From contig CAZSKX010000001.1 in assembly GCA_964607655.1 (NCBI GenBank), forward strand, positions 363,010-427,009: 64,000 bases of DNA. The letters are read 5' to 3'. Below the pieces are notes generated by a model, which did no database searches, was not told the DNA's origin, and saw nothing but the letters and a program-made list of their open reading frames with translations. Origin of the DNA: an uncultured Candidatus Saccharibacteria bacterium. GTDB taxonomy: Bacteria; Patescibacteriota; Minisyncoccia; Phycocordibacterales; Phycocordibacteraceae. Both the position numbers and the translations under genes were made by a program. Below are positions 8,787-56,726 of the stretch, piece by piece (within the stretch, counting starts at the first letter, position 1; each line of letters opens with the position of its first letter).

Positions 8787-8875
8787 GTCGGGATGGCGGA
8801 ACTGGTAGACGCACAGGACTTAAAATCCTGGGAGGGCTTAAAAACCTCGTGTGGGTTCGACCCCCACTCCCGGCA
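8787..8875 (+). tRNA. tRNA-Leu (TAA), long variable arm
   Basis: Acceptor GTCGGGA/TCCCGGC, anticodon loop CTTAAAA, long variable arm and T-arm GTGGG-TTCGACC-CCCAC. Confidence 0.8.
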
Positions 8876-8970
8876 CAAAGCGGAGCTTTTTGAGTGAGGG
8901 GTCGAAGGCCGGAGCAGCTTGGCTGCGAGGCGGGGTCGCGCAAAATCTCAGCAGAGATTTATGTGTGACC

Positions 8971-8988
8971 GACCCCCACTCCCGGCAC
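8971..8988 (+). repeat. 18-bp direct repeat of the tRNA-Leu(TAA) 3' end (gacccccactcccggcac)
   Basis: Exact copy of 8859-8876, located 112 bp downstream. Confidence 0.85.
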
Positions 8989-9103
8989 TAATGCACGCAT
9001 GAGAGAAGGCACTTGGACAATACTTTTTAGTACTTGACAAATAGCCTACTTTGTAGTAGGCTACAATAAACTTCTGAACACCCAACACCCGTAAGGAGGG
9101 GTT

Positions 9104-9313: not shown

Positions 9314-9407
9314 ACCAACCGTCCCCCCACCAGAAAGCCGTGGGAGGACGGTTTTCGATTTTACCAATACTAGACCTTGGCTCCGGCTCACACAAAGCTG
9401 TGCCTTG

Positions 9408-41858: not shown

Positions 41859-42488
41859 TTAGGCAAAAAGTGGCTTCTCATCGACAATCTTATCCTTGAT
41901 CAGCTCGTAGTATTGGTAGTCGTTGTGCTCGTATTTCCTGAAAATTGCCCACGAAATAAAGTCGACCGCTTGAAGTGACTTGTTCTCGTGCGAAGCGTGT
42001 AACTCTACTTTGAATACACCGTCTCGGCGATTACTCATTTCTGTACATAAATACGTTACAAAATTTTCCTTCAGCCGCTTCTTGGTGTCCTTCCGGTCGA
42101 TGTAGAGTTCGATCGATTCCTGTACACTCAACGCATCACTCTTATGGAGCCGGTCTAAGAGGATGTTCGCGGTGTAATTATAGAGCACGTTCTTTTGACT
42201 CTGTAGATTCGTATAGACCTTTTCCTTGTTCAAGACAATCGTTTGCACCTTGAGATCCGGGATCTCACTCAACTTCTGTAATAATCTCTTGCGTGTTATC
42301 TCGTCAGCCCCGTACGCATGCAGCTCCCCCAAGCGCTTATGCTTCTTCTTTAGCGTGCGCCAGACCTTCTTGACAGCCCGCTCAAGCGCACGCTCGTCGG
42401 CGACGATAGCAATGGTAAAGAGAAACCATTTGCTCGATCCTTTCTTAAACCCCAAATCCCCGCTCTCATCAAGAAAGACGTAGGCCAT
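41859..42488 (-). CDS. DUF3800-family protein
   Basis: N-terminal MAYVFLDESGD, the hallmark of DUF3800; the ATG overlaps the upstream stop (TAAtATG). Confidence 0.6.
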   Translation of the reverse strand: MAYVFLDESGDLGFKKGSSKWFLFTIAIVADERALERAVKKVWRTLKKKHKRLGELHAYGADEITRKRLLQKLSEIPDLKVQTIVLNKEKVYTNLQSQKNVLYNYTANILLDRLHKSDALSVQESIELYIDRKDTKKRLKENFVTYLCTEMSNRRDGVFKVELHASHENKSLQAVDFISWAIFRKYEHNDYQYYELIKDKIVDEKPLFA

Positions 42489-42489
42489 A

Positions 42490-43653
42490 TTACCGATTCC
42501 CCTTCGCTCGGTTGTGTGTTTTGCAGAGCATTTGACAGTTTGCCGCATCGGTCGCTCCCCCCTTACTCCAAGCAGCCACGTGATCGGCATCCATATCGGA
42601 CAAACTCCAGATCTTCTCCTTGTTGGCGTCATGCCCAATGGCGCACAAGGGACAATTTGATTCACTTTTTTCTTTCGCCGCTGCGGTCTGAGCCTCATAA
42701 ACTGAGCGTTTAGTCGCATCGTCAAACACGCGCACGTCCAACAACTTCGTGTCCACTTCGCCTCCTAATACATACTCGAAGATCCCTCGTCGGTTCTTGA
42801 CGTGCGCGTCTCCATAAAGACGCTGCACCGCGGCAGAAATTACCGCGGGATCGTAAGTTTGCGCATGGTACGTCTTGTACAAACGATTCCATTCCAGCCC
42901 CTTCATTTCGCTTTCGACATCAATGAAAATTGACGACACCCAATCAATGACTTTGTTGAAGTGATTTTTCAACTCAGTGATATCCGAATCCTGACGGTGC
43001 TTACTCATGTAGTTATCGATTGCCCCATCAGACACCCAGTCAAGCGCATGCTCCAGAAAAGCTTGGCGCTTGATATCACCAGAGACGTAGGCACTCCACT
43101 TCTGCACATTCGCATTTTGGCTATTACTAAACTCCTCACGCGCACGAGTCACAAAAGGCCCGGAGTAGACCGCGTTCAAAATCTCCTGCTCGGTTAGCGG
43201 CACACCCGCAATGTTGATCGTCTTGAACCAATCCTTGATCTCTGGCTCTTCGCCCTCGCATATGTAGATGAGCAACTTCGTATTCAAGATCTTCTCGCGC
43301 TGCACATCGGCCATCCCGCTATAGTATTGTTCGTGACCATTCTGGTCCCTTACCGCAAACAAACCGGTCACAAATCGACCAATACTAGTGATACGCTGCT
43401 GACCGTCGAGGACTTCAAACTTTTCGTTGCCCACCTGATTGAAATACATCACTCCGATTGGATAACCTTTCACAATGGAGTCGATTACTGCCACGTCACG
43501 CCTTCCGTCCGCGTATATGTAATTACGTTGGTACTCAGGCTGGATAGTAAGCGTACCTGATAGACCAAACAGACCCTTGCCTTCAAATGCATTGTATTCA
43601 AAACCGGCGACAACGTCGCGAATGGTGATGTCAGTTTTTAGTGCAGTTTTCAT
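42490..43653 (-). CDS. ParB-like/DUF262 nuclease-domain protein with C-terminal HNH endonuclease domain (GmrSD-like architecture)
   Basis: VLDGQQR (DUF262 signature) N-terminally; CPLC...DADHV...N...CKTHN (HNH) C-terminally; translationally coupled to both neighbours. Confidence 0.7.
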
Positions 43654-43654
43654 A

Positions 43655-44809
43655 TTATTTCTTCTTGTGCTTTATAAAAATTCTCTTGAAGGCCATTTTT
43701 GCAATGCCATTGTCGTAATAGCCTGCAGTTGGGTTGCCTTCCTTATACGCCCCCGTTCCACCTGCTTTATAGTAATCATCGACGAACTTCTTTGTTAGCC
43801 CTGGTGTCCGTTTGAACTCATCACCAACAAGTCCGTTATCGTTTGTGCCCAGGATCTCAAACTGTTCCGGTGAATACTTGTCTAGGAAGCTAATCGGCAC
43901 ACCCATTGCCCCATCGTAATCACTCGGTATGGCATCTGTAAATGGCACCTCGATTGCGTCGTAATTGTCATATTTATCGTAATCGGCCTTGTCTTTCATC
44001 TTTTTGTTAAATCTAAAATTGTCAGAATATGTCATAAGACTAAGCGGTCGGTGACGGCGACCATGATCAAGATTGGTAAACCAGCATGTGTTACCCATTT
44101 TCTGTTCGGACTTATCTGGTCTCACATATGTTTTTGCACCACTCACAACCCCCAACCACACCTTGTTCATCTTTATCAAAGGAAAAATTTCTTTATAAGT
44201 TATGGCATTCATGCTGCCAAGTATCAGAAATTGTTTGTTGTGCTCCATGAGCTGGGCCACATAAGGCCGAAACAGGCTAAATGGAGGATTGGTGACTACA
44301 ATGTCGGACTCTTTAAGCAGCTCGACGCATTCAGGACTTCGAAAGTCGCCATCGCCCTCTAGCGGCGACCACTCGTTATTTTTATTTTCCTTCAATTGCT
44401 GCGAAATATCTTTCAGCGTGAAGGAGCCATCCCCGTCCACATCGCCAACTTCGTTAATGATAAATTTGTTGGCCGTAATCTTCGGTCGGCCTTTGACAGG
44501 CTCGAGTGTCACATCGTCGCCAAATAGCCCGAGCTGAGTATTCGCAACAGGCGAGGGCTTGTAGCTCGTGGTAATAAGCCGCTTTAGACCGAGGCGTTTG
44601 AAATTAAGCACGAAGTAGCGGAAGAAGTTACTCTCGAACGGATCGTCGCAATTGCAGTAGACAATCTTATCCTTAAAAGTGTCGCGGTCGTACTCCAGAT
44701 AGGCCTCAATCTCTTTTTGAATATCGCTGTACTGCGTATAGAACTCGTCATTCTTTGCCTTTTTGGCATTTGTGAGATTGCTGTTCGCCATTACGCCAAA
44801 TAATCCCAC
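43655..44809 (-). CDS. EcoRI-family N6-adenine DNA methyltransferase
   Basis: N-terminal NDEFYTQ...VYCNCDDPF and the catalytic TNPPF (motif IV of m6A MTases); GTG start (an ATG alternative is at 44791). Confidence 0.65.
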
Positions 44810-52006: not shown

Positions 52007-52198
52007 GTGTAGCAGAATGCGGGTTTTCTATCGGGTGCGGAGGGGGGAGATTCGGTCAGGCGTAAATTTCTGCTGAAATTTCGCACGACCCTGGCTCGGC
52101 GCGCCCGCCTCCGCCTTTCGAATCTCCCCTTTTGCTATGCAAAACGCCGCCTTGCGGCGGCGCTCCCGCAACATAAGTTGCGTGTACTCCTTATGTTG

Positions 52199-52285
52199 CG
52201 GAGAGGGGGAGATTCGAACTCCCGATAGGCTTTCGCCTATGCCGGTTTTCGAAACCGGTGCCTTCAACCACTCAGCCACCTCTCC
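52199..52285 (-). tRNA. tRNA-Ser (CGA), long variable arm
   Basis: Acceptor GGAGAGG/CCTCTCC, anticodon loop TTCGAAA, long variable arm and T-arm GGGAG-TTCGAAT-CTCCC. ORF 52028..52279 is this tRNA read as protein. Confidence 0.8.
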
Positions 52286-53348: not shown

Positions 53349-54896
53349 GTGGCAAGAGATGGTAGATTAAGGAAAATGATGAACGGCACGGGCATCCTGT
53401 ATCTGGTGACTTTCGTAGCGAACGCCGCGATACTCGTTTTTGAGATCGCGGGCGCTCGCCTCCTGGCCCCGTTCTTTGGCACCTCGGTTGAGGTATGGTC
53501 GGGGACCATAGCGGTCGTGCTCGGCGGTATGGCGATCGGGTATTGGGCGGGCGGGATCATCGCTGATCGCTATCCCGACAAGGGCGTTCTCGGGACAATC
53601 CTTTTCGGCGCAGGTCTCGCAGCTCTCTTGGCCTGGGGCCTGCGCGACTTCATTCCCGCACTATTCTCAGAGATGCACGTCTTTAGTCTCACCTGGGCTA
53701 CCGTAGGAGCAGCTCTCCTGCTCTTCGCGCCGATGACGATAATCCTCGCGGCCGTCTCCCCGTTTATCGCAAAGTTTCTCCTCACGACACTCGACTCGTC
53801 TGCAAAGACTGTCGGGCGAATCAACGCTGTCGGGACCGCGGGGAGCATCACGGGCGCACTGCTCTCTGGCCTGCTGCTCATACCACGCTTCAGTCTCTCG
53901 AACATATTTCTCGGGATCGCGCTCGTTCTTCTCGCGCTCGCATTAATGATAAGTAGCGCACGATTCTCCAAAAAGATGGGCATGCTTGTCGCCATCTTTG
54001 GGCTCTCAGCGTTTATTTCTACGGCAACAAGCGCAGACCTCGGCGCCCTCGTACGCGCAGACATCGGTACGCCCTATAATCGCATCTGGATACTCGAGCA
54101 CCAGATGGAGAGCCACACCCTGCGTATGGTACAGACCGATCCGTTTGGCACCCAGTGTGCCATGCGCATACTGCCAGATAACACTGTTGATGAATCGCGG
54201 ATCGAGTTCACCTATTTAAAAGGATTTGATGCTATCGCACGGGTTACTCACGACGAGACGACCTCTCTCCACGCACTCTTTCTCGGCGGTTGTAATTATT
54301 CTTATCCACGCACCTTCCTCAGCCATTTTAAAAATGCGTCCGGCACCGTAGTCGAGATCGATCCGGGCATGACGAGAGCGGCCGAAGAATATTTCGGTTT
54401 TGTTCCTAGCCGTTTCCCTTCGCTACAGGTGGTGCACGAGGACGCTCGACGATATGCCGCTCGCGCAACCGCTGCCTATGACCTCATATTTATGGACACC
54501 TTTGGCTCGTCTTCGAACATACCCTTCCACCTAACCACGCAAGAGAATTTTTTGGCTTTAAAACATCGCCTGCGAGGTGACGGACTGTTGATCATTAACA
54601 TGATCGGCCCGCACGCTGGACCTTCTTCGGCGTTTGCCGCGTCGATGATCAAAACGGTCTCAACCATTTTCCCTCACACAGCTCTCTACTCCTTTAATCA
54701 GCAAGCGCCGTCTGCTCTTCAAAATTTACTAATTGTAGCGAGCGTCTCGAGAGAACTTCCCGATTCTTTCTCCACCCGAACCTACCCCGACCTCTCTCTC
54801 ACGAAAGCCGACATCTCAGAACTCGCTCCTAGTCTCGTACTTACGGACGACTATGCGCCAGTCGAGTATTTAACCCGTACCAATCGAGCGTTATAG
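53349..54896 (+). CDS. Fused membrane domain + spermidine-synthase-like methyltransferase-fold protein
   Basis: ~8 N-terminal TM helices, then a C-terminal spermidine-synthase-like domain (DLIFMDTFGS). The true start may be the ATG at 53376. Confidence 0.6.
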   Translation: MARDGRLRKMMNGTGILYLVTFVANAAILVFEIAGARLLAPFFGTSVEVWSGTIAVVLGGMAIGYWAGGIIADRYPDKGVLGTILFGAGLAALLAWGLRDFIPALFSEMHVFSLTWATVGAALLLFAPMTIILAAVSPFIAKFLLTTLDSSAKTVGRINAVGTAGSITGALLSGLLLIPRFSLSNIFLGIALVLLALALMISSARFSKKMGMLVAIFGLSAFISTATSADLGALVRADIGTPYNRIWILEHQMESHTLRMVQTDPFGTQCAMRILPDNTVDESRIEFTYLKGFDAIARVTHDETTSLHALFLGGCNYSYPRTFLSHFKNASGTVVEIDPGMTRAAEEYFGFVPSRFPSLQVVHEDARRYAARATAAYDLIFMDTFGSSSNIPFHLTTQENFLALKHRLRGDGLLIINMIGPHAGPSSAFAASMIKTVSTIFPHTALYSFNQQAPSALQNLLIVASVSRELPDSFSTRTYPDLSLTKADISELAPSLVLTDDYAPVEYLTRTNRAL

Positions 54897-54934
54897 TTTG
54901 CTACCTGCATAAAAAACTGTTAATTTCATCTTAC

Positions 54935-55006
54935 GGCCCCATCGTCTAACGGCTAGGACAGCGCCCTTTCACGGCGTAAATCGGGGTTCGATTCCCCGTG
55001 GGGTCA
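54935..55006 (+). tRNA. tRNA-Glu (TTC)
   Basis: Acceptor GGCCCCA/TGGGGTC, D-arm TCTAACGGCTAGGA, anticodon loop CTTTCAC and T-arm CGGGG-TTCGATT-CCCCG. Confidence 0.8.
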
Positions 55007-55325
55007 CAACGCACTGCATGGAGCCACCGCAAGGTGGCTTTGTGCGTTGTGACCCCAAGCAAAGCGTGGGACGCTTTGCGTCGGGGAATCGAAGACCTTG
55101 TGAGCAGATTTTGTGAATGCTTGGAACAAAATCTCCACAAGGTGTACAGATCCTGTAAGGATCGATAGCGTACTCGCGTTCCCCGTGGCAGAAAATTATG
55201 TGTGATTCGATTCCCCTCCAGTATAAAAACAAAACACTCACCCGTATCTCGACCAGAGGTCGAGTATACGAATGAGTGTTGAACGAACCTGACGGCCTTC
55301 GCACAAGCCGGTTGTTGCTCGGACT

Positions 55326-56726
55326 CTAGTTCCGAGCGTACGGCCTGCAGATGGCAGCTTTGATCTCGCTGAAGATCACCACCGGCGTCTTCGGCAGCTG
55401 CGTGAGCGGTTTGAAAACCGGCTGCGCATTGTCACAGACGACGTCCTTGAGCCGTGCTTCGAGCTCGCTCAGGGCAGCCTCCTGATACTTGGCCTCCTTC
55501 TGCTCGGCAGCGAAACGCCAGGCATCCAGCCTCTTGGCGATCCTTTCTTCGACGCGATCGAACCACTGCCCGATCTTCTCGCCGCGACCCTTGAAAACCC
55601 GGCCGAGGAAGTTCACTGTCGCGGCCAGCGCCACAACCAGAACCACACCCGCCGCGATGATGGCAGCGAGGTGCAAGACTATGGTGACGCCAGCGGTGAA
55701 GGCGTTCCACAGCGTCGGCTCGACGCCGATCTTGATGCAGTGCACGAGCCCCATCACAGTGAACAGGGCCCAGGTGATCGGCATCAGGAACAACGCCGGC
55801 ACGGTGAGCCAGTGGATCTGATGCACCCCAGCGAACTCGGAGGAGTCGTAGGGGTCCTGCTTCCACCGGAACGCCAGCCCGCACGCGATCTTGTCGAGAC
55901 GCCGGCCTTTCAGGGGCACCACACGGACGTCACCCTCCATGAAGGGATGGAACACGGGCTTCCAGTTGATCCCCTTCATTGCGAAGAGCGTCGTCGAGCC
56001 GAGCGCGATGGCTCCCCTGACGAGCGTGTTGATCGTGGCGACGAGCACGATCCCGAACGGCTTGAGGAAGAGTGCAATGAGCACCCTCCTCCGGAGGTGA
56101 CACTCGTCGTCGAGACGAAGCTCACCACCATTCGGAAACATGAGCCACCAAGAGAGCCAAGCCGGCGGAGGTGAGGCGAAGAGGCCGCCTTCGATGACGA
56201 CCGCCTGCTTCGCCAGACCGAGACCGGGTACGCTGTCCTTGTCGAGACTCAGCTGACGCCGAGCCTCTTCCTCGTCGAAGGCTTTACCCTCCTTCTCAGC
56301 CAGGTACTCCAGCTCGCCCAGCTGTCCGATGACGTCGAACACGTCGTTCTCGTACCGCGCGCTCCTCGCCCCGCTCGTGCGGTCGAGGTAGTATGCTCGT
56401 AGCCTCGAGTATTTCCCGCCCCACACCACCCTCGCGTGGAGAGTGTGCAGTCCAGGCCGATGGAACGCGATCCTCGCTTGCAGCTGATGCAGCGGCACGA
56501 GCTGTCGCATGCCGGCAACCTCCTTCCCATCCTTGTCGGTGACGCAGATGAGCAGGTAGGGGTTGACCGCGCGCGCGTCCTCGAGACGCCGGACCAGGTC
56601 CCGCGAGACGCACCATTGGATAGCCAGATTGGGTTCCTGGACGCTCCGCTGGGGGATGACGATCTTGATCAGACCTTCTCCCTCGACGTCGTCCATCACG
56701 GTTCCACGATGGTTCTTTTCGATCAT
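55326..56726 (-). CDS. Hypothetical large membrane protein (soluble N-domain + polytopic core + coiled-coil tail)
   Basis: SD AAAGGAGG upstream of the ATG; 466 aa; no recognisable family. Confidence 0.5.
   Translation of the reverse strand: MIEKNHRGTVMDDVEGEGLIKIVIPQRSVQEPNLAIQWCVSRDLVRRLEDARAVNPYLLICVTDKDGKEVAGMRQLVPLHQLQARIAFHRPGLHTLHARVVWGGKYSRLRAYYLDRTSGARSARYENDVFDVIGQLGELEYLAEKEGKAFDEEEARRQLSLDKDSVPGLGLAKQAVVIEGGLFASPPPAWLSWWLMFPNGGELRLDDECHLRRRVLIALFLKPFGIVLVATINTLVRGAIALGSTTLFAMKGINWKPVFHPFMEGDVRVVPLKGRRLDKIACGLAFRWKQDPYDSSEFAGVHQIHWLTVPALFLMPITWALFTVMGLVHCIKIGVEPTLWNAFTAGVTIVLHLAAIIAAGVVLVVALAATVNFLGRVFKGRGEKIGQWFDRVEERIAKRLDAWRFAAEQKEAKYQEAALSELEARLKDVVCDNAQPVFKPLTQLPKTPVVIFSEIKAAICRPYARN

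What the first reader, a model, noticed from the sequence alone, without database searches (positions are those of the whole stretch)
54985..55217. tRNA-Glu 3' end embedded in a 14-bp-arm palindrome, with additional T-arm fragments in both orientations downstream
gggtcacaacgcac (55001-55014) pairs with gtgcgttgtgaccc (55055-55068) around an inner GC hairpin (gccacc-gcaa-ggtggc). ttccccgtgg recurs at 55186-55195, ttcgattcccc at 55207-55217 and its complement ggggaatcgaa at 55083-55093. Multiple partial copies of the tRNA T-arm and acceptor flank an uncharacterised 466-aa membrane protein gene, again suggesting recombination or integration activity or a tRNA-derived repeat family.
Basis: seen in the sequence. 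Interest (0 to 1): 0.5.

Follow-up and report, generated by a model that had tools for sequence, protein, structure and literature searches.

The report
Decayed mini insertion element at tRNA-Glu
The palindrome and stray tRNA fragments after this tRNA-Glu gene are a worn copy of a small gene-less insertion that sits at the 3' end of several tRNA genes in this Patescibacteria lineage, carries its own replacement tRNA end, and leaves the original end displaced downstream.

Summary

**What is there.** The 3' end of tRNA-Glu pairs with a downstream inverted copy. That copy has 28 of 28 bases complementary and is split by a 24-nt hairpin. Truncated direct copies follow.

**It is not unique to tRNA-Glu.** tRNA-Leu(UAA) and tRNA-Ser(CGA) in the same window have the same layout:
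- tRNA
- terminator-like hairpin
- inverted copy of the tRNA's own T-loop-to-3'-end segment
- a shared structured core ending in GTGAC
- a direct copy of that tRNA's 3' end

**Evidence from relatives.**
- Relatives have further copies at tRNA-Leu and tRNA-Glu.
- The closest relative has an empty tRNA-Leu site. There the original trailer follows the tRNA directly; in the window it follows the downstream copy.
- Presence across relatives is patchy.
- One core hairpin covaries.

**Best reading (confidence 0.6).** This is a decayed member of a family of roughly 110-230-nt insertions that encode no protein and target the tRNA T-loop. Each regenerates the tRNA 3' end and displaces the original.

**What is inferred, not shown.** The enzyme that moves them, presumably a T-loop-type integrase acting in trans, was not found. 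The role of the inverted copy is also inferred.

**Other points.** The 466-aa gene is not flanked by the fragments and is a resident gene. I rate this a new variant of a known kind.

The parts
54935..55006 (+). tRNA-Glu(UUC), intact, with no encoded CCA
   Evidence: ARAGORN; Rfam tRNA model, 60.1 bits
54987..55014 (+). X1: T-loop, T-stem 3' strand, acceptor 3' strand and 8 nt of trailer. This is the block that is copied in inverted and direct orientation downstream.
   Evidence: Homologous blocks of 16-28 nt are seen at other tRNAs.
55023..55038 (+). Inner GC hairpin GCCACC-GCAA-GGTGGC followed by TTTG. It is terminator-like and resembles the GCAA-loop hairpin after tRNA-Ser.
   Evidence: The consensus terminator scan did not call it.
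55042..55057 (+). Inverted copy, part 1: perfect complement of the acceptor 3' strand plus 8 nt of trailer
   Evidence: I1: 16 nt, 100% complementary
55058..55081 (+). Hairpin H1 (GCAAAGCG-TGGGA-CGCTTTGC). It splits the inverted copy exactly at the acceptor/T-stem junction.
   Evidence: The same design occurs in L064 and L068. The L068 H1 is similar at its base (AGCAA...TTGCGT).
55082..55093 (+). Inverted copy, part 2: perfect complement of the T-loop and T-stem 3' strand
   Evidence: I4: 12 nt, 100% complementary
55095..55143 (+). Long hairpin with CTTGG (55120-55124) in its loop. It occupies the place of the GC-rich core hairpin, whose loop carries CTTGG/TTGG in other copies.
   Evidence: (I5); comparison
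55149..55163 (+). Small hairpin GATCCT-GTA-AGGATC
55179..55188 (+). TTCCCCGTGG, a 10-nt direct copy of the T-stem 3' strand and start of the acceptor strand. It sits where other copies have the 5' arm of the AGCA-loop hairpin. Its origin is unresolved: a templated patch or the remnant of a second insertion.
55189..55205 (+). Remnant of the conserved right end of the element: the 3' arm of the AGCA-loop hairpin plus ATGTGTGAT (GTGAC in other copies)
   Evidence: nhmmer hit at 55188-55219, E = 0.003; alignment A2
55206..55216 (+). X2: truncated direct copy of the tRNA-Glu T-loop and T-stem 3' strand. I read it as the displaced original 3' end. It is positionally homologous to the perfect 28-nt copy in L044.
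8858..8988 (+). Intact family member at tRNA-Leu(UAA). Parts: X1 8858-8876; 93-nt insert 8877-8969 containing the inverted copy 8892-8906; hairpins at 8914-8926, 8925-8939 and 8943-8960; ATGTGTGAC 8961-8969; X2 8970-8988.
   Evidence: Empty site in L061.
52036..52216 (-). Family member at tRNA-Ser(CGA). Parts: X1 52216-52197; GCAA-loop terminator hairpin 52163-52145; inverted copy 52129-52117; AGCA-loop hairpin 52081-52064; CCTGAC; X2 52054-52036.
   Evidence: L044 has only the left part.

Best explanation
The tRNA-Glu trailer (54987-55216) is a decayed copy of a small insertion element that encodes no protein. The family targets the T-loop of tRNA genes in this Patescibacteria (Paceibacterota/Kaiserbacteria-like) lineage.

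**An intact copy, in order**
1. Its own copy of the tRNA segment from the T-loop to just past the 3' end (X1). This copy is now part of the working tRNA.
2. A short terminator-like hairpin.
3. An inverted copy of that same tRNA segment. In some copies it is split by a hairpin (H1) at the acceptor/T-stem junction.
4. A structured core: a GC-rich hairpin, a GCGA-GGCGGGG-TCGC hairpin, and a 7-bp hairpin with an AGNA loop.
5. A conserved end, ...GTGAC.
6. The displaced original tRNA 3' end (X2), followed by the original trailer.

The palindrome is X1 pairing with the inverted copy. The downstream T-arm fragments are the inverted copy and the decayed X2.

**Shown**
- The shared architecture at three tRNAs in the window and at more tRNAs in relatives.
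- A shared core.
- A clean empty site.
- Patchy distribution across relatives.
- Covariation in one core hairpin.

**Inferred**
- Insertion is by site-specific recombination with the crossover in the T-loop, as for class II tRNA-targeting tyrosine integrases.
- The recombinase is supplied in trans.
- The X1/inverted-copy hairpin is part of the element's recombination site, possibly as a folded single strand. With the enclosed GC hairpin it also ends tRNA transcription.
For: **Features are not chance:**

**Same layout at 3 of 6 tRNAs in the window**
- Leu(UAA) has a perfect 19-nt direct repeat.
- Ser(CGA) has a 19-20-nt direct repeat with one indel.
- Glu has an 11-nt direct repeat.
- Each also has an inverted copy of its own T-arm.

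**Shared core**
- nhmmer with a core profile finds only tRNA-adjacent copies: window Leu E = 4e-25, window Ser E = 3e-22, L045 Glu E = 5e-22, three in L064, and the window Glu copy weakly at E = 0.003.
- By eye, the core at the window's tRNA-Leu is about 90% identical to the core at tRNA-Glu of L045.

**Empty site**
- L061 has an IF-2 that is 93% identical to the window's.
- In L061, tRNA-Leu(UAA) runs ...CCCGGCAC|TAAAG... with no second copy.
- In the window, TAATG... follows X2. The distance from there to the downstream TTGACA is 45 nt, against 44 nt in L061.

**Patchy presence, suggesting separate insertions**
- Leu(UAA): present in the window and L064. No second 3'-end copy or core was found in L061, L062, L063, L067 or L068.
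- Leu(UAG): present in L064 with a perfect 22-nt repeat, and in L068 with a different core and an H1. No canonical copy in the window or L061.

**The tRNA-Glu copy is old**
- It is orthologous in L044 and L045 and vestigial in L046.
- L044 still has a perfect 28-nt direct repeat, TCGATTCCCCGTAGGGTCATGGGTAAAA.

**Single-strand structure**
- In the AGNA-loop hairpin, 5 of 7 pairs change on both sides and 97% of cells pair. No shuffle out of 500 reached the observed paired percentage or covariation score.
- The split inverted copy with H1 recurs at three different tRNAs.

**Precedent**
- T-loop-targeting integrases use attP cores identical to the tRNA 3' end. For Ms6 the core is 26 nt.
- Ms6 was retargeted between tRNA-Ala genes by editing that core (PMC1762012).
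- A regenerated tRNA plus a displaced fragment marks integrated elements (PMC4383910 abstract).
Against: - No integrase, transposase or reverse transcriptase was found. About 49 ORFs of the window were scanned against Pfam, and the element has no room for a gene.
- No larger, gene-carrying relative of the element turned up in viral contigs, phage records or plasmid records.
- One core serving tRNAs with different 3' ends is not expected from a single sequence-specific integrase. Each retargeting must change X1 and the inverted copy together.
- In old copies the inverted copy stays perfectly complementary to the tRNA while X2 decays:
  - window Glu: 28/28, against about 16/28 for X2;
  - L064 Leu(UAA): 21/21, against three changes in 19;
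  - L068 Leu(UAG): 23/23.
  This suggests continuing selection or hairpin-templated correction, not a dead relic.
- An empty site can also arise from deletion between the direct repeats.
- Only about five to seven organisms could be sampled.
Confidence: 0.6

Rival explanations
1. A host-functional RNA or DNA module rather than a mobile element. A structured trailer contains an antisense copy of the tRNA 3' half. It controls tRNA transcription termination, 3' processing or folding, or acts as a tRNA-like minihelix. It is inherited vertically and lost by deletion between the direct repeats.
For: - The inverted copy stays perfectly complementary to the tRNA while X2 decays.
- The trailer is strongly structured: z = -8.4 for 54935-55235 as RNA and z = -5.1 for the Leu copy.
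- One core hairpin covaries.
- H1 sits exactly where the D and anticodon arms leave a real tRNA.
- These genomes are thought to be small (my own knowledge, not measured here) yet keep these 100-250-nt trailers.
- One U-G pair in the GCGA hairpin is compatible only with the tRNA-sense strand.
Against: - The closest relative lacks the module at tRNA-Leu(UAA), while a fresh copy with a perfect 19/19 repeat is in the window.
- Copies at the same tRNA in different genomes have unrelated cores.
- Copies at different tRNAs in different genomes share a core that is about 90% identical by eye.
- X2 and much of the core decay in the orthologous Glu copies.
- Three of the six tRNAs in the window have no canonical copy.
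- No Rfam family matches.
Confidence: 0.15
2. A mobile element that inserts by a staggered cut or target-primed mechanism. The direct repeat would then be a long target-site duplication reaching from the T-loop to the tRNA end, not an att identity block.
For: - Perfect direct repeats border a short insert with no genes.
- The insertion point relative to the empty site is equally compatible with this mechanism.
Against: - Repeat length varies (16, 19, 19-20, 22 and 28 nt) while the left edge stays fixed in the T-loop. Target-site duplications have a fixed length for a given transposase.
- There are no terminal inverted repeats at the insert ends.
- No reverse transcriptase or transposase was found.
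- In the window's Glu copy the inverted copy is complementary to 8 nt of the trailer next to X1.
Confidence: 0.1
3. Scars of ordinary large prophages or genomic islands that integrated at these tRNAs and later lost nearly all their DNA by deletion.
For: - tRNA 3' fragments next to integrase genes are common.
- The same tRNA-Glu 3' sequence occurs as a tRNA 3'-half fragment in two viral contigs. One of them has an integrase-like C-terminus beside it, read by eye.
Against: - Independent random deletions would not leave the same ordered set of parts at five or more sites: terminator hairpin, inverted copy, core hairpins and the GTGAC end, in about 110-230 nt.
- The fresh Leu(UAA) copy has perfect repeats and an intact core.
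Confidence: 0.08
4. Only a terminator palindrome is real and the short T-arm matches are chance.
For: The inner GC hairpin followed by TTTG looks terminator-like.
Against: - Exact 11-mers occur only here in 64 kb.
- The inverted copy is 28 of 28 complementary.
- The fragments are positionally conserved in relatives.
- The same design occurs at other tRNAs.
- Among 87 tRNAs outside the clade, the longest inverted match to the tRNA's last 30 nt was 9 nt. Inside the clade the longest were 13, 12, 12, 12 and 10 nt.
Confidence: 0.02

Closest known systems
tRNA-gene-targeting integrative elements with T-loop (class II) tyrosine integrases, such as mycobacteriophage Ms6. This includes integrase-less derivatives flanked by att sites, which I know as cis-mobilisable elements and satellite islands (own knowledge).
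   Same: - The element regenerates the tRNA 3' end and displaces the original as a direct repeat.
- The identity block starts in the T-loop and runs to about the tRNA end: 16-28 nt here, 26 nt for Ms6.
- The original trailer follows the displaced copy.
   Different: - It is only about 110-230 nt and has no genes.
- No integrase was found nearby.
- One core family serves tRNAs with different 3' ends (Leu-UAA, Leu-UAG, Ser, Glu).
- It carries an inverted copy of the att block, sometimes split by a conserved hairpin. I do not know this as a feature of such att sites.
Folded single-strand recombination sites: integron attC and the CTX-phage attP hairpin used by XerCD (own knowledge)
   Same: - An imperfect or interrupted inverted repeat folds one strand into a duplex mimic of a recombination site, with an extrahelical hairpin.
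- The element needs no recombinase of its own.
   Different: - There are no attC R'/R'' motifs.
- The target is a tRNA T-loop, not attI or dif.
- No integron integrase was found.
- The single-strand route is pure inference here.
Miniature inverted-repeat transposable elements (MITEs)
   Same: Small, structured insertions without genes, present or absent among relatives.
   Different: - No terminal inverted repeats at the insert ends.
- The repeats are long, variable in length and tRNA-specific.
- Copies were found only next to tRNAs.
Intrinsic terminators with an extended stem after tRNA genes
   Same: - A GC hairpin followed by a T-rich tail sits directly after the tRNA.
- L044 and L045 have a textbook A-tract/U-tract extended hairpin there.
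   Different: - The outer 28-bp stem includes 20 nt of the tRNA itself.
- It is interrupted by H1.
- The consensus scan does not call a terminator here.
IS110-family bridge RNAs (own knowledge)
   Same: The topology is similar: two target-complementary segments flank a conserved hairpin, and the sequence differs with the target.
   Different: - No DEDD recombinase was found.
- Both segments here pair with the same strand, contiguously.
- No donor-binding loop was identified.
- This is a resemblance only.

Membership tests
tRNA-targeting integrative element (T-loop class) | An intact regenerated tRNA plus a displaced 3' fragment as a direct repeat downstream | tested here: met
   The tRNA scores 60 bits. 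X2 is at 55206-55216, truncated to 11 nt. Repeats are perfect or near-perfect in family members: 19 nt at window Leu, 28 nt at L044 Glu, 22 nt at L064 Leu(UAG).
tRNA-targeting integrative element (T-loop class) | The identity block starts at the crossover region in the T-loop and extends to about the tRNA 3' end | tested here: met
   In most copies the block begins at T|TCGA or TT|CGA. In L068 it begins just after the T-loop. It ends 0 to 9 nt past the tRNA end.
tRNA-targeting integrative element (T-loop class) | In an empty site, the trailer that follows the tRNA corresponds to the sequence after the displaced copy | tested here: met
   Shown for the Leu(UAA) member using L061. No empty tRNA-Glu site was available.
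tRNA-targeting integrative element (T-loop class) | The element encodes a tyrosine (or serine) integrase next to the att site | tested here: not met
   The inserts are 93-200 nt and have no ORF. No integrase domain was found in about 49 ORFs of the window.
MITE | Terminal inverted repeats at the insert ends and a short target-site duplication of fixed length | tested here: not met
   The insert ends AAAGCGG... and ...GTGTGAC are not inverted repeats. The repeats are 16-28 nt and vary in length.
Intrinsic terminator | A GC-rich stem-loop followed directly by a U-tract | tested here: inconclusive
   The hairpin at 55023-55038 is followed by TTTGTG only. The scan found no terminator-like site. 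The Ser copy has GCGCCGCC-GCAA-GGCGGCG followed by TTTT.
Integron attC / folded-hairpin att site | Conserved RYYYAAC...GTTRRRY ends and an integron integrase | tested here: not met
   These motifs are absent from the arms. No integrase was found. Only the hairpin folding is shared.
Any Rfam RNA family, or a tRNA/tRNA-like gene | A covariance-model or ARAGORN match over the module | tested here: not met
   Only the tRNAs themselves match at gathering score. Sensitive scans of 54850-55450 and 8870-9000 give noise only. ARAGORN finds no second gene.
IS110 bridge RNA | An adjacent DEDD/serine recombinase gene and two internal loops that pair with target and donor | tested here: not met
   No such domain was found in the window. 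A donor loop was not looked for.

The most novel reading that the evidence does not exclude
The inverted copy, whether split around the conserved H1 hairpin or contiguous, is a programmable guide.
- By base pairing with the T-loop-to-3'-end segment of a tRNA gene, or with its single-stranded form, it would specify which tRNA the mini-element enters.
- The same core could then be retargeted to Leu, Ser or Glu tRNAs by changing the guide.
- An unidentified host or helper recombinase would act in trans.
- This would be a nucleic-acid-guided, tRNA-homing element with no genes of its own, in bacteria thought to have very small genomes.
Probability: 0.1. Interest if true: 0.9.

Novelty: new variant of a known kind. 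Interest (0 to 1): 0.6.

Why it matters
**If the reading holds**
- These would be among the smallest integrative elements known: about 110-230 nt with no genes.
- They rebuild the tRNA they interrupt.
- One shared core is combined with tRNA-specific ends at several different tRNAs.
- They occupy half of the tRNA genes in this window, in an uncultivated Patescibacteria lineage.

**Questions this makes testable**
- Which recombinase moves them?
- How is the target changed?
- Does the conserved complementarity to the tRNA 3' end act in recombination, or does it affect tRNA expression?

**Practical consequence.** Island-finding tools that use displaced tRNA fragments as island ends would be misled by these copies. 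Annotators of candidate-phyla genomes should expect them.

Tried and rejected
- **Chance.** Rejected by shuffles and window-wide counts.
- **Dispersed repeat elsewhere in the window.** blastn-short of 54900-55340 against the rest of the window gave only 10-15-nt noise. The family link appeared only when each tRNA's own 3' end was compared with its flanks.
- **Known RNA families.** None matched.
- **Metagenome scan with the conserved 3' element of the 466-aa gene.** It returned two contigs already in hand and one coding-region chance hit.
- **Viral scans.**
  - The 3'-element pattern found nothing.
  - The core pattern found two chance hits in coding sequence.
  - The tRNA-Glu 3'-end pattern found jumbo-phage tRNA arrays plus two att-like tRNA halves from unrelated hosts.
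- **Phage and plasmid collections.** No match to the Leu module.
- **The 466-aa gene as cargo or recombinase.** No Pfam or PHROG hit. Synteny is conserved. There is no tRNA fragment on its far side.
- **A second tRNA or tmRNA on either strand.** None found.
- **L044 tRNA-Ser as an empty site.** Rejected. It keeps the element-type GCAA-loop terminator, so I read it as a truncated copy.
- **Literature.** Three full-text searches found no description of such elements. A fourth search failed on syntax.
Full report
**1. What is in the sequence**

tRNA-Glu(UUC) lies at 54935-55006 on the + strand. It is followed by CAA, so no CCA is encoded.

- The palindrome is real and larger than reported. The perfect arms are 16 nt, at 54999-55014 and 55042-55057.
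- Inside the palindrome is GCCACC-GCAA-GGTGGC at 55023-55038, followed by TTTG.
- A second perfect 12-nt pair, 54987-54998 with 55082-55093, continues the first pair.
- The downstream strand therefore carries the exact reverse complement of 28 nt: T-loop, T-stem 3' strand, acceptor 3' strand and 8 nt of trailer.
- That inverted copy is interrupted by a 24-nt hairpin at 55058-55081 (GCAAAGCG-TGGGA-CGCTTTGC). The break falls exactly at the junction between the acceptor and T-stem segments.
- Direct copies follow: TTCCCCGTGG at 55179-55188 and TTCGATTCCCC at 55206-55216.

None of this is chance.
- The three exact TTCGATTCCCC sites are the only ones in 64 kb.
- TTCCCCGTGG occurs twice; 1 of 100 shuffles reached two matches.
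- The 16-mer occurs only at the two arms.
- 54985-55095 folds at -52.1 kcal/mol as single-stranded DNA, z = -12.9.
- 54935-55235 folds as RNA with z = -8.4.

All fragments lie between the tRNA and the 3' end of the 466-aa gene (55326-56726, - strand). They do not flank that gene.

**2. The same design at other tRNAs in the window**

I compared each tRNA's 3' end with its own flanks and then read the sequence.

tRNA-Leu(UAA), 8787-8876:
- The tRNA ends ...TTCGACCCCCACTCCCGGCAC.
- A 93-nt insert follows at 8877-8969.
- Then comes a perfect 19-nt repeat, CGACCCCCACTCCCGGCAC, at 8970-8988.
- The insert contains a small hairpin plus T-run; an inverted copy GAGTGAGGGGTCGAA (8892-8906); a GC hairpin with a TTG loop; GCGA-GGCGGGG-TCGC; AAATCTC-AGCA-GAGATTT; and the end motif ATGTGTGAC.

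tRNA-Ser(CGA), - strand, has in the same order:
- a GCAA-loop terminator hairpin that resembles the one after tRNA-Glu;
- the inverted copy GGGGAGATTCGAA (52129-52117);
- a GC-rich stretch;
- AAATTTC-AGCA-GAAATTT;
- CCTGAC;
- the direct copy CGAATCTCCCCCCTCCGCA (52054-52036).

tRNA-Glu retains ...GCAGAAAATTATGTGTGAT directly before TTCGATTCCCC. This is the right end of the same element.

A profile of the core finds only tRNA-adjacent copies:
- window Leu, E = 4e-25;
- window Ser, E = 3e-22;
- window Glu, weakly, at 55188-55219, E = 0.003;
- L045 Glu, E = 5e-22;
- three in L064.

The finding is therefore one worn member of a family. Three of the six tRNAs in the window carry a copy.

**3. Who and where**

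- IF-2, GyrA, FtsZ and FtsA identify a bacterial chromosome.
- The nearest named IF-2 relatives are Paceibacterota, Kaiserbacteria and Patescibacteria.
- The 466-aa protein has only four homologues in the large protein collection.
- For the three of these with DNA available, the contigs keep tRNA-Glu tail-to-tail with that gene. It is a resident gene.
- L044 is a close relative: its Na/Ca exchanger is 83% identical to the window's.

**4. Comparative evidence**

(a) The tRNA-Glu copy is old.
- L044 has, at the position homologous to 55206, a perfect 28-nt repeat of its own tRNA end plus trailer (TCGATTCCCCGTAGGGTCATGGGTAAAA). It is preceded by GTGAG.
- L045 has GTGAC|TCGATTCCCATCC. By eye, its core is about 90% identical to the core at the window's tRNA-Leu.
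- L046 keeps only vestiges.

(b) There is an empty site.
- L061 has an IF-2 93% identical to the window's.
- There, tRNA-Leu(UAA) is followed directly by TAAAG... and then the promoter-like TTGACA of the next gene, 44 nt away.
- In the window, TAATG... and the same TTGACA, 45 nt away, follow the second copy, not the tRNA.
- The sequence next to the tRNA is therefore the newcomer, and the downstream copy marks the original tRNA end.

(c) Distribution is patchy.

| tRNA | Copy present | No canonical copy found |
|---|---|---|
| Leu(UAA) | window (fresh, 19/19); L064 (older, with three changes in the downstream copy) | L061, L062, L063, L067, L068 |
| Leu(UAG) | L064 (perfect 22-nt repeat); L068 (different core) | window, L061 |

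At tRNA-Ser, L044 keeps the terminator part only.

(d) The split inverted copy recurs.
- L064 Leu(UAA) has GTGCCGAGG[25-nt hairpin]GTGGGAATCGAA.
- L068 Leu(UAG) has ATGTGCCGGGGA[20-nt hairpin]GAGGACTCGAA.
- Both are perfect complements of their own tRNA ends.
- The L068 hairpin resembles the window's at its base (AGCAA...TTGCGT).

(e) Background.
- Among 87 tRNAs outside the clade, the longest inverted match of the last 30 nt within 400 nt downstream was 9 nt.
- In the clade the longest were 13, 12, 12, 12 and 10 nt.
- Direct matches of 11-18 nt in phage tRNA arrays come from neighbouring tRNAs. ARAGORN finds no such neighbour after tRNA-Glu here.

**5. Structure**

- The AGNA-loop hairpin changes on both sides in 5 of 7 pairs across five copies, and 97% of cells pair.
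- No shuffle out of 500 reached the observed paired percentage or covariation score. Slid controls pair at 18-53%.
- This hairpin is therefore kept as a single-strand structure, in RNA or in DNA.
- One U-G pair weakly favours the tRNA-sense strand.
- In older copies the inverted copy remains perfect (28/28, 21/21, 23/23) while the downstream direct copy decays. Simple decay of a dead insertion does not predict this.

**6. What it is not**

- No Rfam family matches.
- There is no second tRNA or tmRNA.
- There is no other copy elsewhere in the window.
- Phage and plasmid records have no match, and viral contigs hold no real copy of the core.
- No integrase, transposase or reverse transcriptase domain appears in about 49 ORFs of the window.
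- The neighbours have no PHROG hits.

**7. Most likely mechanism**

Shown:
- a short insert with no genes;
- it is bounded on the left by the tRNA's T-loop-to-end block and on the right by a copy of that block;
- the original trailer lies after the right copy;
- the left edge is fixed in the T-loop for most copies, and the right edge varies near the tRNA end.

This is the signature of elements that integrate by site-specific recombination in the T-loop and carry a replacement tRNA 3' end.
- For phage Ms6 the attP core is 26 nt, identical to the tRNA 3' end.
- The T-loop is the likely site of strand exchange.
- Editing the Ms6 core retargeted it between tRNA-Ala genes.
- The regenerated gene plus displaced fragment is the standard mark of such integration (Islander abstract).

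Inferred:
- a recombinase supplied in trans;
- the hairpin formed by the tRNA end and the inverted copy is part of the recombination site, possibly folded from a single strand, as for attC or CTX-phage (own knowledge);
- the enclosed GC hairpin ends tRNA transcription.

Unresolved:
- how one core acquires matching direct and inverted copies for different tRNAs;
- why the inverted copy stays perfect;
- the origin of TTCCCCGTGG at 55179. It sits where other copies have the 5' arm of the AGNA-loop hairpin. It may be a templated patch or the remnant of a second insertion.

**8. Rivals**

- A host-kept trailer structure acting on tRNA expression is the main rival (0.15). The perfect inverted copies favour it. 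The fresh insertion beside an empty site and the mismatch between core similarity and orthology argue against it.
- A mechanism producing a target-site duplication (0.1) fits the borders but not the variable repeat length.
- Scars of large islands (0.08) do not explain the repeated ordered architecture.
- Chance plus a plain terminator is excluded.

**9. Novelty**

- Regeneration of a tRNA with a displaced fragment is well known.
- I did not find, in three literature searches or in my own knowledge, an insert of about 110-230 nt with no genes that does this at several different tRNAs with a shared structured core and an internal inverted copy of the target.
- I rate it a new variant of a known kind.

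Noticed in passing
window 55229-55311 (- strand); L044 2290-2370, L045 2300-2385, L046 7435-7515: About 80 nt between the stop codon of the 466-aa gene and the tRNA-Glu module are nearly identical in all four loci, although the adjacent proteins are only 36-45% identical. The stretch is a 23-bp hairpin plus GAACGAACCTGACGGCCTTCGCACAAGCCGG. The substitutions keep pairing only on the - strand, as G-U pairs, so it looks like a conserved 3' UTR, terminator or small RNA of that gene. There is no Rfam match. It is very rare in metagenomes.
   Followed up: partly
window 53349-54896: The 515-aa gene has a weak spermidine-synthase-like domain and lies between the Na/Ca exchanger gene and tRNA-Glu. It is absent from that position in the close relative L044. 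Its best homologues are at most 35% identical and come from many phyla. It looks like an acquired gene on the 5' side of the tRNA.
   Followed up: partly
window 41859-44809: This is the lowest-GC segment of the window: 47.7% GC in the 42-44 kb bin. It carries an EcoRI-type adenine methylase, a GmrSD/HNH endonuclease and a DUF3800 protein. It is probably an acquired restriction or defence islet.
   Followed up: no
L064 4412-4511: Two modules lie back to back in opposite orientation, 18 nt apart. They are the downstream copy of the tRNA-Leu(UAA) module and a second core on the - strand that runs into an N-run. The tRNA belonging to the second core could not be identified.
   Followed up: partly
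contig of P0003 (no DNA available): The 475-aa homologue is on the same strand as the 100-aa, glyoxalase and DUF2333 genes. In the window and in L044 it is divergent from them. This suggests an inversion of the gene in that genome.
   Followed up: no
L046 7602-7674: The syntenic tRNA-Glu of this relative has anticodon CUC instead of UUC. Its acceptor pair also differs, matching L044 (GGCCCTA/TAGGGTC).
   Followed up: no
L057 3440-3490 and L055 10005-10049 (viral contigs): The same tRNA-Glu T-arm and acceptor sequence occurs as a tRNA 3' half starting near the anticodon loop, with no full tRNA. In L057 it lies next to what reads by eye as the C-terminus of a tyrosine integrase. These are ordinary att-type fragments from unrelated hosts.
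   Followed up: partly
window 9320-9406 (- strand trailer of tRNA-Leu(UAG)): This trailer is about 45 nt longer than in L061. It contains GTGTGAGCCGGAGCC, which resembles the end and start motifs of the module core. It may be a remnant of another copy.
   Followed up: no
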